A DNA stretch of 64,000 nt, taken from the NCBI GenBank assembly GCA_963783425.1, contig CAWANO010000010.1, positions 613,472 to 677,471 of the forward strand, in the 5' to 3' direction. Under the pieces are notes generated by a model, which saw nothing but the letters and a program-made list of their open reading frames with translations, had not been told where the DNA came from and ran no database searches. The stretch comes from an uncultured delta proteobacterium (GTDB lineage: Bacteria > Desulfobacterota > Desulfobacteria > Desulfobacterales > QNYZ01). The position numbers and the translations under genes were made by a program. Shown one piece after another: positions 7,789 through 26,383 of this stretch; position 1 is the first letter of the stretch; each line of letters begins with the position of its first letter.

Positions 7789-8943
7789 ATGAGCGTTTCC
7801 TCGTTTAGTGCCATGGAACTGTTTGATTGGCTTTGCGACCCCGCCAAGATCGATTTTCTGCTGCTCGATGTGCGCAACCAAGAGGAGTTCGGGCGCTTTA
7901 AGGTCGAAGGGCCCTTTGATTTCGAGATGCTCAACGTGCCCTATATGGAGTTTATCGAGCATGAAAAAGAGAGCGTGGCGCGGGTGCCCAAACGCGACAA
8001 GATCCGCGTGGTCTGCGCCAAGGAGGGGTCCTCCAGGTTCGTGGCCGAGATTCTCGAAAACCACGGCTACAGCGACCTGGCCAACCTGCAGGTGGGCATC
8101 AAGGCCTGGGGCAACCTGCTGGCGCCCATCAAGGTGGCCGAGACCGGCACCTACGGCCTCTACCAGTTCCGGCGCCCGGGCAAAGCTTCGTGCAGCTACG
8201 CGCTGACCTGCGGCAAGGAGATGATGGTCTTTGATCCGGCCAAGAACATCGCCGCCTACCAGCGCTTTGCCGACGAGCGCGGCCTGGCCATCATCAAGAC
8301 CGTCGAAACCCACCGCCAGGCCGACTATATCTCCGGCAGCCCGGCCCTCAACAAAACTACCGGGGCCGAGATCATCGCGCCCACGGGCGATTTCGAGGAG
8401 GCGCGCTTTCGCTACACCCCGGCCGTGGACGGCGAACCGATCGCCTTCAGCCAGGCGGGGCCCGCGGTGCGCATCGTGCACACCCCCGGCCACACCCCGG
8501 GCAGCACCTCCTACCTGATCGACAACCGATACCTCATCACCGGCGACACGGTTTTTATTTTCAGCATCGGCCGGCCCGACCTGGGCGGCATGGCCGATGC
8601 CTGGTCGAAAATGCTCTTTGATACCGTTCAGAACAAGATTCTCAAGCTCGACGACGCCACCGTCATTTTACCCGGCCACTACATGGACTGGAAAGAGGCC
8701 AATGATGACCTGATCTTCGCCGAAACCATCGGCAAGATCAAAGAGATCAACCAGGAGATTTACAACATCGACACGGAAGCCGATTTTTATCAATACATCA
8801 AGGCCAATATGCGCAAACAGCCCGAGGAGTATGCCAAGATCCGTCAGATCAACGCCGGCCTGATCGAGGTCGACCCCGAAGAACAGGATATCATGGACCT
8901 GGGCAAGAACGAGTGCGCCGCCAGCGCAATGGCACAAAGCTAA
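7789..8943 (+). CDS. rhodanese domain plus MBL-fold metallo-hydrolase (persulfide-dioxygenase-like)
   Basis: AAGGAG RBS lies upstream. The N-terminal rhodanese domain has the Cys loop 'VVCAKEGSSRF'. The MBL core includes 'ETHRQADYISG' and 'VHTPGHTPGS'. Confidence 0.8.
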   Translation: MSVSSFSAMELFDWLCDPAKIDFLLLDVRNQEEFGRFKVEGPFDFEMLNVPYMEFIEHEKESVARVPKRDKIRVVCAKEGSSRFVAEILENHGYSDLANLQVGIKAWGNLLAPIKVAETGTYGLYQFRRPGKASCSYALTCGKEMMVFDPAKNIAAYQRFADERGLAIIKTVETHRQADYISGSPALNKTTGAEIIAPTGDFEEARFRYTPAVDGEPIAFSQAGPAVRIVHTPGHTPGSTSYLIDNRYLITGDTVFIFSIGRPDLGGMADAWSKMLFDTVQNKILKLDDATVILPGHYMDWKEANDDLIFAETIGKIKEINQEIYNIDTEADFYQYIKANMRKQPEEYAKIRQINAGLIEVDPEEQDIMDLGKNECAASAMAQS

Positions 8944-12533: not shown

Positions 12534-13646
12534 TCACTCCAAGGCCTGAAAGTGCCGCATGAACTTGCGGTCGATGTGATCTTTGATCAGAAAGGCCAGG
12601 CGCCCGCCAAAGGTAATCCCGGCCTTGTGGAGCACGCCCTGATCGCCACCCATGTTGAAGATCAGCAGGTAGCTGCCGCCGGGATCGAATGGTGTGAGCG
12701 CCTCGCCCTCCAGGGCCGCCACCAGGTTGGCATAGAGTACGGGGTTCTGGCGCACGGCGTAGACCCCCACCTTGTCCAGAGGCTGGGGCTCAAAATAGAT
12801 ACAGTCGCCCCCGCCGAAAATGCGCTCATCCCCAATGCACTGCAGGTAACGGTTGACCAGCAGGCCGCCGTCGGGTCCGGTGGGCAGCCCCGAGTCGGCG
12901 AAAATCCGTGAGGGTCGCACACCCACCGCCAGGAACACGAAATCGGCCGGGTCGTTGGTACCGTCATCCCGCACCACCACACCGGCCCGAATCGCCGCCG
13001 CGCGAACGCCGTCCAGCACTTCGACACCCCGTTTGGTGAGGATTTTTTTTGCCCGGCGGCGCACGGGCTGCGGAAAGCCCTTCATGAAACGGCTGCCGGC
13101 ATAGACGCGGATGCGGGGATCGTGTTTACCCAGCCGCCGGGCCAACTGCCAGACGTTACCGGCCACCTCTACGGCCGAAGGGCCGCCGCCCACGATGGCC
13201 ACCTGAACCGGGCCGGCAGCGGTCAGTTTTTCGAGGCGCTGCTGTGCCTCCATGAGCCGTTCGATGGGTTTTACGGTAAAAAGTGCTTCCACCTCGCCCG
13301 CCAGGATATCCCGGGGCACATAGCTGCCGGCGTTCATGGAGAGCACATCGTAATCGATGGAGTCGCCCGAGGCCAGATGCACCCGGCGCGCCTCGGCATC
13401 CACCCGCACGGCACTGTCGTGCACGAAGGCGCCGCCCTGTTTTTCCACCACGTGTCGGGTTCGGAAACGAATATCATTGGGCGTGTAGGTGCCACCGAGC
13501 ATACCCGGCCCCATCCCGGAGTAATAGTGGTGCGTGGAAGGCTGTACCACGCTGACCCGGTGCCCCTTGGCGCGGATGGCATGCAGATTGGCCAGGGTGA
13601 CCATGTGGGCATGCCCCCCGCCGATCAATACCAGATGTTTTCCCAT
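12534..13646 (-). CDS. NAD(P)/FAD-dependent pyridine-nucleotide-disulfide-family oxidoreductase
   Basis: It has an N-terminal Rossmann fold ('HLVLIGGGHAHM') and a second dinucleotide fold ('VAIVGGGPSAVEVAG'). It also has 'IFGGGDC' near the C-terminus. Confidence 0.8.
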   Translation of the reverse strand: MGKHLVLIGGGHAHMVTLANLHAIRAKGHRVSVVQPSTHHYYSGMGPGMLGGTYTPNDIRFRTRHVVEKQGGAFVHDSAVRVDAEARRVHLASGDSIDYDVLSMNAGSYVPRDILAGEVEALFTVKPIERLMEAQQRLEKLTAAGPVQVAIVGGGPSAVEVAGNVWQLARRLGKHDPRIRVYAGSRFMKGFPQPVRRRAKKILTKRGVEVLDGVRAAAIRAGVVVRDDGTNDPADFVFLAVGVRPSRIFADSGLPTGPDGGLLVNRYLQCIGDERIFGGGDCIYFEPQPLDKVGVYAVRQNPVLYANLVAALEGEALTPFDPGGSYLLIFNMGGDQGVLHKAGITFGGRLAFLIKDHIDRKFMRHFQALE

Positions 13647-13679: not shown

Positions 13680-14525
13680 TTACGCGCTTTGAACGGTCAC
13701 CCGATCCATCATTTTGCCCAACACCTTCAGGTGTGTTTTCTCCTCCGAGGCGATCTGCAGCAGGAATTCGCGCGCCGGAGATGCTTCCCGGCGGTCGGCG
13801 GCGCGAAAATAGAGATCCATGGCCTGGGCTTCGATGGACATGGCCATCTGAATCGCCCCCTCGGCGCTGTTCAGGTCTGGTTTGAACAACTCCAGATATT
13901 GTTCAGTGGTCAGTCCGCCTTCAGCCGCCGGCGCCACGATATCGCTTTCGAACGTCTCCCGGTCGACCGGGTTTTCGGCCACCTTGCTGTAGATCTCAAA
14001 CAACCGCCGCTTGTGGCCGATCTCGATATCGGCCAGGCGTTTGAACATATCCTTCACCGCCGCACCGGGCACCCGTTCGGTCATGCTCAGATAAAAATCC
14101 CGTAACCCGTCCTCCAGCGAGTAGCCTAAACCCAGCACCTGTTCGGTGGATTGAATGTCGGTGAAAAGCGCCAGTCCAAGGGTTTCATCGCCCACCACCA
14201 CGTTACTCTCCCAGGCTTTGATGCCCCCTGACAGGTTGAGCACGTTGTCAAAACCCTTGCCGCCCATCAACTGCGCAGCCACCCGGCTGCGGCCGCCCGA
14301 GGCTCAGTAGACCAGGGTTGGTTTTTCAGGATCGATCTCCTTCAGGCGGTCGGACAGTTCCGGCAACGGGATCAGCTTGGCCCCGGGCAAATGCCCGGCC
14401 GCATACTCGTTGGGCTGGCGCACATCCAGCACGGTAACCTCGTCGGCTTTGGCCGCCGCCAACATCTCGCGGCCTTGCTGCGAGTCGATGGATTTAACCG
14501 GTGTGAAAAACTGTTTCCATTTCAT
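13680..14525 (-). CDS. predicted selenoprotein: rhodanese (Sec at the active site) fused to a ferritin/rubrerythrin-like domain
   Basis: Track ORFs 14304..14525 and 13680..14282 share one frame, interrupted only by TGA (14304-14306). Read-through gives 'PTLVY-U-ASGGRSRVAAQL...GGIKAW', the rhodanese CxxGxRS loop with U in place of C. The C-terminal part has two ExxH motifs ('DIEIGH', 'SEEKTH'). Confidence 0.8.
14274..14291 (-). promoter_or_regulatory. candidate bacterial SECIS hairpin
   Basis: The mRNA can fold as CGCAGCC-GGGU-GGCUGCG, a 7-bp stem with a G/U-containing tetraloop. The stem starts 12 nt after the UGA. Confidence 0.6.
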
Positions 14526-14850
14526 CTTGACATTGATCCTTTCACTTGGGACGATTTTGGGGCTCCGTACCTGGTGCCATCATAGAGCGTGGGCCAAACC
14601 AGTCAAGTGGATTGATGACATCGCCGGCGGCTAATTATATCCCGGTGTGAAAGATGGGCTTGAGTTCGATCGGGTTCCATAGTAAATACAGATAGTTTTA
14701 TGCCGGTTTCGTTTTTTCACCGCAAACAACCATCGGTGAGCCTTATTCATAGCTCACACCCCTGAAAACACGAAACACATCGCCAATCTATAGAATCACC
14801 TTATATTTATCCTATTACTGTTTGATTCCGGCCACCGAAAGGAAAACCCC

Positions 14851-15726
14851 ATGATCGATAACGCCGACACACCCCGGGTCAACGGATTTCAATTCTTGCC
14901 GCCCAAGCTGGGAGCCTGGATCAACAGCTATATTCCCGCCGAGGATTTCGAAGGACCCATTCCGTTTCAACCACTCGCCAAACCCCTGGTCGAATCCACG
15001 CTGGCCATGGTCACCAGCGCCGGCATCAGCCTCAAGGGTGATGCGCCCTTCAACATGACACGTGAGCTTGAGGAACCACTGTGGGGCGACCCCAGCCATC
15101 GTTGTTTACCCGCCACCACCACGTCCGCCGAGATCGACGTTAATCACCTCCACATCAACACCGATTACATCAAGCAGGACATTAACGTGATTCTGCCGCT
15201 GCAGCGCCTGGACGAGCTGGTCGGGGCGGGGGAGGTCGGTGGAGTAGCGCCCACGGCCTACTCTTTTTACGGGTTTCAATGGGACCGGGATTCGTTTCTG
15301 GAAAAAAGTATCGCCCCCATGATCGCACAGATGAAGTCAGAAGCGGTGGATGCGGTGTTGCTCACTCCGGCCTGACCGTTTTGTTGCCGGTCCGTGGGAC
15401 TGGCCGCGCGCATGATCGAAGAGGCAGGCATCAGCACGGTGGTGCTTACGCCCATGCCCGAATTTCACCGCGCCGTGGGCATTCCACGCCAGGTGGCCGT
15501 GGCCTTTCCATTCGGCCGCCTGTTGGGTGAGGTCGGTGATGTCAAGACCCAAAAGCAGGTACTGCAAACGGCGCTAGGGTGGCTGGAAATGGCCAAGCGT
15601 CCCGGCCACACCCGTCACCAGCCGCTGACCTGGCCTGAATCGCCCAAGGATACCCATTGGCATCCGCCCCGGATGAGCCCGATCATTAAACATTTTTTGA
15701 GTGAGATTAAAAAAACACCGGTTTGA
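14851..15726 (+). CDS. predicted selenoprotein of the glycine/sarcosine/betaine/D-proline reductase component B (GrdB/PrdB) family
   Basis: Track ORFs 14851..15375 and 15394..15726 share one frame, interrupted by TGA (15373-15375). Read-through gives 'VDAVLLTPA-U-PFCCRSVGLAARMIEEAGISTVVL', which matches the family's 'LLT..U..C....r.iE.aGIptv' redox motif. Confidence 0.8.
15386..15404 (+). promoter_or_regulatory. candidate bacterial SECIS hairpin
   Basis: The fold is GCCGGUCC-GUG-GGACUGGC, an 8-bp stem with one G-U pair. The stem starts 10 nt after the UGA. Confidence 0.55.

Positions 15727-23940: not shown

Positions 23941-26383
<2,443 letters not shown>

What the first reader, a model, noticed from the sequence alone, without database searches (positions are those of the whole stretch)
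14851..15726. Second recoded TGA: short GrdB/PrdB-family selenoprotein with SECIS-like hairpin
ORFs 14851..15375 and 15394..15726 share one frame, split by TGA at 15373-15375. Read-through gives VDAVLLTPA-U-PFCCRSVGLAARMIEEAGISTVVL, which matches the U-x-x-C redox motif and following helix of the reductase component B family.

An 8-bp hairpin (GCCGGUCC-GUG-GGACUGGC, 15386-15404) starts 10 nt after the UGA.

At 291 aa the protein is much shorter than GrdB. No grdA/grdE/prdA-type partners are adjacent, so the substrate and partner proteins are unknown.
Basis: partly seen in the sequence, partly recalled or inferred. Interest (0 to 1): 0.7.

Follow-up and report, generated by a model that had tools for sequence, protein, structure and literature searches.

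The report
Orphan PrdB-like selenoprotein gene
This is a real selenocysteine-encoding gene for a small relative of the proline-reductase B subunit; the family is already catalogued and common in sulfate-reducer-type bacteria, and it has no known partner or substrate.

Summary
ORFs 14851-15375 and 15394-15726 are one 291-codon gene interrupted by UGA at 15373-15375, and an 8-bp hairpin starts 10 nt downstream.

Comparative data make Sec decoding very likely:
- All 80 best species-level homologous loci, mostly binned as Desulfobacterota, carry TGA at this codon and continue in frame as PFCC[QR]SVGLAAR.
- Three orthologues and 44 of 64 distant full-length relatives have Cys there.
- The hairpin is kept by synonymous-codon choice. 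Ser is TCC in 93% of cases against 23% background. Gly and Leu use only pairing codons. Adjacent non-stem wobble sites vary freely.
- An AlphaFold model of a Cys orthologue is one confident domain, with the Sec site at the N-terminus of a helix.

The protein passes Pfam GRDB and is closest to PrdB (138 bits), but it is far below the PrdB equivalog cut-off of 300 bits. No PrdA, GrdA or GrdE gene lies nearby, in the window or in 1.15 Mb of flanks of relatives. It has no conserved neighbours at all.

PrdB-type UxxC selenoproteins have appeared in selenoproteome surveys since 2005. This is therefore a new member of a known kind whose function is unknown. The likely mechanism is a selenol/thiol (U175/C178) reductase.

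The parts
14851..15726 (+). Complete recoded coding sequence of the PrdB-like selenoprotein (291 residues plus terminal TGA)
   Evidence: Single frame. tblastn matches in 80 loci run across the internal TGA, covering residues about 9-288 at about 60% identity. Pfam GRDB and NCBIfam PrdB hits. One-domain AlphaFold model of the Cys orthologue P0002.
15373..15375 (+). In-frame UGA, read as selenocysteine (U175)
   Evidence: TGA in 80 of 80 homologous loci. TGT/TGC (Cys) in orthologues L081, L083 and L084. Cys in 44 of 64 distant full-length relatives.
15382..15387 (+). Codons for C178 and C179. C178 completes the U-x-x-C motif and is the presumed resolving cysteine.
   Evidence: PFCC is conserved in 79 of the 80 loci (L075 has PFCN). 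It aligns with the second Cys of C-P-x-C in Cys relatives. The resolving role is inferred.
15386..15404 (+). SECIS-like hairpin: 8-bp stem and GUG loop. Two possible extra pairs, 15383-15384 with 15406-15407, lie across a 1x1 internal loop.
   Evidence: Fold results. 95.6% of cells paired across 81 sequences against 18-45% in slid controls, with all variation structure-preserving. Synonymous-codon bias in the stem only. The stem is broken in 2 of 3 Cys orthologues.
14840..14843 (+). Shine-Dalgarno-like AGGA, 7 nt before the ATG
   Evidence: Read directly from the sequence. No such element precedes any candidate start in the C-terminal half.
14780..14807 (+). Promoter-like site (TCGCCA-16-TATATT) in the divergent intergenic region
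   Evidence: Consensus scan only, 9 of 12 matches. Weak evidence.

Best explanation
This is one gene for a 291-residue selenoprotein of the PrdB-like branch of the GrdB/PrdB (Pfam GRDB) superfamily.

During translation the UGA at 15373-15375 is decoded as selenocysteine. The conserved hairpin 10 nt downstream would act as the bacterial SECIS element that recruits SelB with Sec-tRNA(Sec). This step is inferred from conservation and was not shown.

The product folds as one alpha/beta domain. U175 lies at the N-terminus of a helix, followed by C178 (the U-P-F-C motif).

By analogy with PrdB and with other UxxC redox proteins, the selenolate most likely attacks an electrophilic or oxidised substrate. 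C178 would then resolve the adduct into a selenenyl-sulfide. A dithiol donor such as thioredoxin would re-reduce it. This mechanism is inferred.

The protein is not a canonical D-proline reductase subunit. It is a stand-alone gene with no pyruvoyl-proprotein partner (PrdA/GrdE) and no conserved neighbours, so its substrate is unknown.
For: Observation and frame.

Family: PF07355 at 27.2 bits against a cut-off of 22. TIGR04483 PrdB at 138.3 bits, E = 2.7e-40, covering positions 20-231 of 238.

Conservation of recoding:
- Of the 120 best database hits, nearly all are about 172-aa products ending at this codon.
- All 80 genome loci have TGA followed by in-frame PFCC[QR]SVGLAAR.
- The C-terminal half is called separately as 'hypothetical protein' ORFs of about 81-120 aa.

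Sec/Cys pairs: L081 has TGT, L083 and L084 have TGC. In 64 distant full-length relatives the column is Cys in 44.

RNA element:
- 95.6% of stem cells are paired, against 18-45% in slid controls.
- Stem codons are biased. Ser is TCC in 75 of 81 against 23% background. Gly is GGA or GGG in 81 of 81 against 57%. Leu is CUG or UUG in 79 of 79 against 42%.
- The Pro codon after the UGA, the loop Val wobble and the following Ala wobble vary freely.
- Two of three Cys orthologues have two mismatches in the stem.

One domain: the AlphaFold model has pLDDT 94.6 and pTM 0.93, with strand 166-170, the site at 173, helix 174-189, and strands on both sides of the site.

No independent start: the GTG at 15394 is the hairpin loop, and this codon is GTC or GTT in 44 of 81 loci.

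Sec competence of the genome: the divergent neighbour is a rhodanese-rubrerythrin fusion with TGA at the catalytic Cys position. That TGA is conserved in L064 and is Cys in L069.

No partner: Pfam scans of neighbours. tblastn with a real PrdA finds nothing in the window or in the loci. The positive control, true PrdB P0313, sits directly after a PF09338 PrdA gene. Immediate neighbours across the loci are heterogeneous.
Against: - No experiment shows selenium incorporation.
- No selA, selB, selC or selD was found among the 21 window ORFs scanned with Pfam (all within 35-24951), and the window has no tRNA-Sec. The ORFs downstream of about 25 kb were not scanned.
- No Rfam family matches the hairpin.
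- In this window alone the hairpin is not statistically remarkable.
- True compensatory double changes are rare, 2 cells in one pair. The stem sequence is almost fixed and also encodes conserved residues.
- One Cys orthologue (L083) still has the intact hairpin.
- Two single-contig metagenomic orthologues have a non-Cys sense codon: P0004/L085 has AGA (Arg), and P0001 has Trp with no DNA available. Each is one base away from TGA.
- The catalytic mechanism and the electron donor are pure inference. PrdA could be encoded elsewhere in the genome.
Confidence: 0.85

Rival explanations
1. It is a genuine D-proline reductase PrdB subunit (or another Stickland-type reductase B subunit). Its pyruvoyl partner PrdA/GrdE would be encoded elsewhere in the genome.
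For: The best family match is the PrdB model TIGR04483 (E = 2.7e-40). The UxxC motif is shared with PrdB. JGI names orthologues 'D-proline reductase (dithiol) PrdB'.
Against: The score of 138 bits is far below the equivalog cut-off of 300 bits, while a true PrdB (P0313) scores 453 bits. True prdB lies directly after prdA, but no PrdA-like sequence occurs in the 64-kb window or in 1.15 Mb around 80 orthologues. The gene has no conserved neighbour. The clade carries N- and C-terminal segments that most relatives do not match.
Confidence: 0.08
2. The TGA is a real stop. The locus would be a split or decaying gene, or two independently translated products of 174 aa and about 104-110 aa.
For: Gene callers annotate the two halves separately. 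A GTG at 15394 and an ATG at 15412 could serve as starts.
Against: The TGA sits at the identical codon in 80 of 80 species-level loci whose proteins are only about 60% identical. The downstream frame is conserved as protein to the end. No Shine-Dalgarno sequence precedes the candidate starts. The GTG is not conserved as a start, being GTC or GTT in 44 of 81 loci. The model is a single domain with strands from both halves. Cys orthologues are uninterrupted.
Confidence: 0.03
3. The UGA is read through as a standard amino acid, for example Trp, Cys or Gly by near-cognate decoding or a reassigned code, and not as selenocysteine.
For: One orthologous database protein (P0001) shows Trp at the site. 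No Sec machinery was seen among the window ORFs that were scanned.
Against: In the greedy ORF list, 22 of the 50 other ORFs with a called stop end in TGA, so TGA is an ordinary stop in this genome. The site pairs with Cys in a CxxC-type redox motif, which is the signature of Sec/Cys exchange. A structure-constrained hairpin follows at SECIS distance. A second Sec-type TGA sits at the rhodanese catalytic position next door.
Confidence: 0.03

Closest known systems
D-proline reductase selenoprotein PrdB (TIGR04483; Clostridium sticklandii and Clostridioides difficile)
   Same: It is the best-scoring family (E = 2.7e-40), aligned over nearly the whole 238-position model. The size class is similar. 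Sec lies in a U-x-x-C motif at the homologous position.
   Different: The score is 138 bits against the equivalog cut-off of 300 bits, and a true PrdB scores 453 bits. No prdA (PF09338) gene lies upstream, unlike the control locus L086. The clade has extra N-terminal (about 30 aa) and C-terminal (about 30 aa) segments. The motif is U-P-F-C-C here, against C-G-T-C-H in the Cys-form PrdB P0313. The taxa are Desulfobacterota, not Stickland-fermenting Clostridia.
Glycine/sarcosine/betaine reductase protein B (GrdB/GrdF/GrdH; Pfam PF07355, TIGR01917/01918)
   Same: It belongs to the same Pfam family, with a hit above the gathering score on the C-terminal part of the model. Sec occupies the equivalent site.
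   Different: It is 291 aa long against about 430 aa, and it matches only positions about 219-412 of the GrdB-type models. Scores of 28-37 bits lie far below the cut-offs of 65-800 bits. No grdA or grdE is nearby. GrdB carries UxxCxxC (review PMC13188914), whereas this protein has UxxCC.
'Proline reductase (PR/PrdB)' selenoprotein family of selenoproteome surveys (Sargasso Sea 2005, bacterial genomes 2006, Olavius symbionts 2007, GOS 2008)
   Same: These are pfam07355 proteins with a UxxC motif and rare Cys homologues. They are abundant in environmental and deltaproteobacterial data, including organisms without glycine reductase. This is the category the window gene falls into.
   Different: The surveys list counts, not sequences I could compare. 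I could not show that this Desulfobacterota clade is identical to their entries. They assign the D-proline reductase function by homology, which the context here does not support.
Cys-containing PrdB-like proteins (C-P-x-C-H/N/T motif), about 2,000 clusters at 50% identity
   Same: They have the same domain over profile positions about 33-260 and the same site, which is Cys in 44 of 64.
   Different: They are 26-35% identical to the Cys orthologue P0002 that heads the alignment. They use Cys or a non-redox residue instead of Sec, and they lack the clade-specific termini. Their function is also unknown.

Membership tests
Bacterial selenoprotein gene (Sec-decoded UGA) | In-frame TGA conserved at the same codon in orthologues, with the reading frame conserved downstream | tested here: met
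   TGA in 80 of 80 loci, followed by PFCC[QR]SVGLAAR. tblastn matches reach residue about 288.
Bacterial selenoprotein gene (Sec-decoded UGA) | Cys in place of Sec in homologues | tested here: met
   L081, L083 and L084 have TGT or TGC. Cys in 44 of 64 distant relatives. Exceptions: one Arg (AGA) and one Trp, each on a single metagenomic contig.
Bacterial selenoprotein gene (Sec-decoded UGA) | Stem-loop immediately 3' of the UGA (bacterial SECIS), under selection as RNA | tested here: met
   An 8-bp stem and a GUN loop sit 18 nt after the UGA. 95.6% of cells are paired against 18-45% in slid controls. Synonymous bias is confined to the stem. The spacing and loop-G criteria of SECIS predictors are recalled from memory, and no SECIS predictor was run. 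No Rfam match.
Bacterial selenoprotein gene (Sec-decoded UGA) | Genome encodes selA, selB, selC and selD | tested here: inconclusive
   None was found among the 21 window ORFs scanned with Pfam (35-24951), and the window has no tRNA. ORFs beyond about 25 kb were not scanned, and the rest of the genome is not available. Indirect support: a second conserved Sec-type TGA in the adjacent rhodanese gene.
Bacterial selenoprotein gene (Sec-decoded UGA) | Selenium found in the protein | not testable with these tools
   Needs 75Se labelling or mass spectrometry.
Pfam GRDB (PF07355) superfamily | HMM score above the gathering threshold | tested here: met
   27.2 bits against 22, residues 37-172 on model positions 214-345 of 347.
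D-proline reductase PrdB (TIGR04483 equivalog) | Score at or above the curated equivalog cut-off of 300 bits | tested here: not met
   138.3 bits. True PrdB P0313 scores 453.2 bits.
D-proline reductase PrdB (TIGR04483 equivalog) | Encoded with the pyruvoyl proprotein PrdA (PF09338) in a prd operon | tested here: not met
   No PF09338 protein among the neighbours. tblastn with PrdA finds nothing in the window or in L001-L085 and L088 at E <= 1. The control locus L086 has prdA-orf-prdB. A distant genomic location is not excluded.
D-proline reductase PrdB (TIGR04483 equivalog) | Sec/Cys in a U/C-x-x-C motif at the homologous site | tested here: met
   U-P-F-C aligns with C-G-T-C of P0313.
D-proline reductase PrdB (TIGR04483 equivalog) | Reduces D-proline to 5-aminovalerate | not testable with these tools
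   Needs an enzyme assay.
Glycine reductase protein B (GrdB, TIGR01917/TIGR01918) | Score above the family cut-offs, and a two-part protein of about 430 aa | tested here: not met
   28.5 bits against 602 and 34.3 bits against 65.45. The protein is 291 aa and matches only model positions about 219-412.
Glycine reductase protein B (GrdB, TIGR01917/TIGR01918) | Linked grdA and grdE genes, and a UxxCxxC motif | tested here: not met
   No such neighbours. The motif here is UxxCC. The GrdB motif is taken from PMC13188914.

The most novel reading that the evidence does not exclude
The Desulfobacterota clade (U-P-F-C-C motif, clade-specific N- and C-terminal segments, always stand-alone, almost always Sec) would be a self-sufficient selenoenzyme. 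Its chemistry would be unrelated to Stickland amino-acid reduction. One possibility is a thioredoxin-linked reductase or peroxidase acting on a small electrophile or oxidant. In that case the 'proline reductase' label that surveys and pipelines give to hundreds of environmental selenoproteins would be functionally wrong.
Probability: 0.5. Interest if true: 0.45.

Novelty: new member of a known kind. Interest (0 to 1): 0.3.

Why it matters
For annotation, the gene should be one 291-residue selenoprotein. Public databases instead hold a 174-aa fragment and a 104-aa 'hypothetical protein', and the same split affects at least a thousand database entries.

Biologically, this adds a well-supported case to an old unanswered question: what do PrdB-like selenoproteins do in organisms that have no proline or glycine reductase? 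The family is large, with 1158 hits at 90% clustering and 165 stretches in species-representative genomes. It keeps Sec almost without exception and has no solved structure. An assayable representative would therefore be useful. Nothing here is surprising to a selenoprotein specialist.

Tried and rejected
- Exact look-ups of the window's 174-aa product and of the 100%-identical C-terminal ORF P0121 found no contig on record. The source genome and its own annotation could not be retrieved. The cluster listing shows only that it lies on a 1.09-Mb NCBI/ENA contig.
- Rfam found nothing, at gathering threshold on the whole window and at E <= 10 on 15340-15460. The two weak hits were irrelevant.
- I tested the window's own neighbours as conserved partners. 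The rhodanese-rubrerythrin gene occurs in 2 of 80 loci and is not adjacent there. Pyr_redox_2, the aldo/keto reductase and CutA occur in 0 of 80. I rejected them as partners.
- De novo clustering of neighbours gave only clade-level synteny with housekeeping genes (tmk, holB, a PSP1-like gene, metG) in about 22 of 80 loci. I rejected these as functional links.
I modelled the Cys orthologue P0002 instead. In that alignment the last six residues of the N-terminal fragments were misplaced.
- The lower-stem extension pair 16-42 of the alignment is not supported, with 27 of 81 cells unpaired.
- No DNA was available for P0001, the orthologue with Trp at the site.

Full report
**1. Observation**

An ATG at 14851, preceded by AGGA at 14840-14843, opens a frame that meets TGA at 15373-15375 and continues in the same frame to TGA at 15724-15726. 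Read-through gives 291 residues with ...VDAVLLTPA-U-PFCCRSVGLAARMIEEAGISTVVL....

The hairpin GCCGGUCC-GUG-GGACUGGC occupies 15386-15404, 10 nt after the UGA. On its own it folds at -12.7 kcal/mol.

Within this window alone the hairpin is not remarkable. The 66-nt fold has a z-score of -0.75. Of the 2099 TGA trinucleotides in the window, 6.5% are followed by sequence that folds at least as well.

**2. Family**

- Pfam GRDB (PF07355) matches above its gathering score, 27.2 bits against 22.
- The best NCBIfam match is the D-proline reductase PrdB model TIGR04483. It scores 138.3 bits with E = 2.7e-40, covering positions 20-231 of 238. This is far below the equivalog cut-off of 300 bits.
- The GrdB/GrdF/GrdH models match only their C-terminal halves, at 28-37 bits.

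The protein is therefore PrdB-sized and PrdB-like, not a truncated GrdB.

**3. Comparative evidence for recoding**

A search of 5.8 billion proteins returned 1158 relatives. Of the best 120, nearly all are products of about 172 aa that stop at exactly this codon, and five are full length. In those five the site is Cys in three, Trp in one and Arg in one.

A search with the C-terminal half found 82 separately called ORFs of about 81-120 aa, unnamed or annotated as 'hypothetical protein'. One of them is 100% identical to the window.

A scan of one genome per GTDB species found 165 matching stretches. The best 80 loci are almost all from MAGs labelled Desulfobacterota or Deltaproteobacteria. All 80 carry TGA at the homologous codon, followed in frame by PFCC[QR]SVGLAAR, and their protein-level matches run to residue about 288.

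The DNA of the sense-codon orthologues shows TGT (L081), TGC (L083, L084) and AGA (L085). No DNA was available for the Trp form.

A profile search of 1.84 billion cluster representatives found 2097 relatives. In 64 full-length ones the Sec column is Cys in 44, typically within C-P-x-C-H/N/T. The remaining 20 have Ser, Gly, Asp, Trp, Asn, Glu or Thr.

**4. The hairpin as a SECIS element**

Across the window and the 80 loci (alignment A2), 95.6% of stem cells form standard pairs. When the 3' arm is slid by 1-3 columns, the figure drops to 18-45%.

All variation preserves the structure: G-C to G-U, A-U to G-U, and two G-C to A-U double changes in one pair. True covariation is sparse because the stem is almost invariant.

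The stronger evidence is codon choice, measured against the rest of the same genes:

| Codon position | Observed | Background in the same genes |
|---|---|---|
| Ser in stem | TCC in 75 of 81 | 23% |
| Gly in stem | GGA or GGG in 81 of 81 | 57% |
| Leu in stem | CUG or UUG in 79 of 79 | 42% |
| Arg in stem | CGG in 13 of 14 | 21% |

By contrast, three wobble positions outside the stem vary freely. These are the Pro codon right after the UGA, the loop Val codon (G 37, C 17, U 27) and the following Ala codon.

Two of the three Cys orthologues have two central mismatches in the stem, and one (L083) keeps it intact. No Rfam family matches the hairpin. That is not unexpected for a gene-specific bacterial SECIS.

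**5. One protein, not two**

An AlphaFold2 model of the Cys orthologue P0002 is 55% identical to the window protein. The window protein itself could not be submitted. The model is a single, confident alpha/beta domain with pLDDT 94.6 and pTM 0.93.

The Sec-equivalent residue 173 lies between strand 166-170 and helix 174-189, and further strands lie on both sides of it. The site thus has the usual geometry of CxxC/UxxC redox centres.

The GTG that opens the second ORF is the hairpin loop, and it is not a start codon in 44 of 81 loci. No Shine-Dalgarno sequence precedes it.

**6. Context**

In the window:
- Upstream and divergent lies a rhodanese-rubrerythrin fusion (14525-13680, minus strand). 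It has its own in-frame TGA at the rhodanese catalytic position.
- Next to that gene lies a pyridine-nucleotide disulfide oxidoreductase.
- Downstream lie a Tat-signal aldo/keto reductase, CutA1 and a UvrD-type helicase.
- Further out there is nothing of the grd/prd type.

None of these neighbours recurs next to orthologues. Clustering of all ORFs in the 80 loci shows only clade-level synteny with housekeeping genes (tmk, holB, a PSP1-like gene, metG) in about 22 loci. The immediate neighbours are heterogeneous: the commonest upstream cluster occurs in 13 of 76 loci and the commonest downstream cluster in 4 of 73.

As a positive control, the one relative that reaches the PrdB cut-off (P0313, 453 bits) sits directly after a 601-aa PF09338 PrdA gene and a 149-aa ORF. 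tblastn with that PrdA finds nothing in the window or in 1.15 Mb of orthologue flanks at E <= 1.

**7. Mechanism**

What is shown:
- a conserved UGA;
- Sec/Cys exchange at a U/C-x-x-C site;
- an RNA hairpin under selection;
- a single-domain fold;
- a stand-alone gene.

What is inferred:
- SelB-dependent Sec insertion directed by the hairpin.
- Catalysis by selenolate attack of U175, resolution by C178 into a selenenyl-sulfide, and re-reduction by a dithiol donor such as thioredoxin. This follows the accepted PrdB and UxxC chemistry summarised in PMC13188914.

The substrate is unknown. With no PrdA/GrdE partner in linkage, D-proline reduction is unlikely.

**8. Comparison with what is known**

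'Proline reductase PrdB' (pfam07355, UxxC) is a long-listed selenoprotein family:
- 42 genes in the Sargasso Sea (PMC1088965).
- 235 selenoproteins and 110 Cys homologues in the GOS data (PMC2398784).
- Entries in Anaeromyxobacter dehalogenans and Geobacter uraniumreducens (PMC1794560).
- Five genes in the Olavius delta-1 symbiont, which has no GrdA or GrdB (PMC1976440).

Current pipelines already name orthologues 'D-proline reductase PrdB' or 'glycine/sarcosine/betaine reductase selenoprotein B family protein', although they are truncated. No member of the family has a solved structure.

**9. Verdict**

This is a real, correctly spotted selenoprotein gene. It is a new member of a known kind: a PrdB-like orphan selenoprotein.

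Its value lies in correcting the annotation and in adding to the open question of what orphan PrdB-like selenoproteins do.

Noticed in passing
window 13680-14525 (minus strand), TGA at 14304-14306: The divergent neighbour is a rhodanese-rubrerythrin fusion of about 281 residues. It has an in-frame TGA at the rhodanese catalytic position (...PTLVY-U-ASGGRS...), and the 42 nt downstream fold at -20.2 kcal/mol, within the top 1% of TGA sites in the window. A homologue in L064 has a stop at the same codon, and a rhodanese in L069 has Cys. Sec-rhodanese is a listed selenoprotein family (PMC1976440), but I did not look into the fusion with a rubrerythrin-like domain.
   Followed up: partly
window 23941-24951 and 24896-26383 (+): The first ORF (336 aa) has the GyrB ATPase and GyrB domains and ends at a TGA. 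A 495-aa ORF follows in another frame and overlaps it by 56 nt. This looks like a frameshifted or mis-assembled gyrB, but the second ORF was not scanned.
   Followed up: no
L085 2103-2987 (protein P0004) and protein P0001: Two single-contig metagenomic orthologues have a non-Cys sense codon at the Sec position. P0004 has AGA (Arg) and has also lost the second Cys of the CC pair. P0001 has Trp, and its DNA was not retrievable. Each codon is one base away from TGA. They could be sequencing or assembly errors, inactive copies, or gene calls made under another genetic code.
   Followed up: partly
window 7789-8943 (+): A second rhodanese-domain protein, fused to a metallo-beta-lactamase fold, lies 6 kb upstream (a persulfide-dioxygenase-like arrangement). 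Together with the Sec-rhodanese-rubrerythrin gene and the Pyr_redox_2 gene at 12534-13646, this gives the region a sulfur and redox flavour. That flavour is not conserved around orthologues of the PrdB-like gene.
   Followed up: no
L069, L067, L043, L076 (record titles): A few loci that carry the gene are binned as Nitrosotalea (an archaeon), Hyphomicrobiales or Thermodesulfovibrio. Their sequences are typical of the Desulfobacterota clade at 58-60% identity. This suggests mis-binned contigs or lateral transfer.
   Followed up: no
L081 2076-3275 and L083/L084 neighbours: The Cys orthologues also lack reductase partners. Their neighbours are DUF362, a chemoreceptor, an HxlR regulator, an acyl-CoA dehydrogenase, PNP_UDP_1 and DnaJ. 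PNP_UDP_1 lies upstream in both L084 (Cys form) and L085 (Arg form).
   Followed up: no
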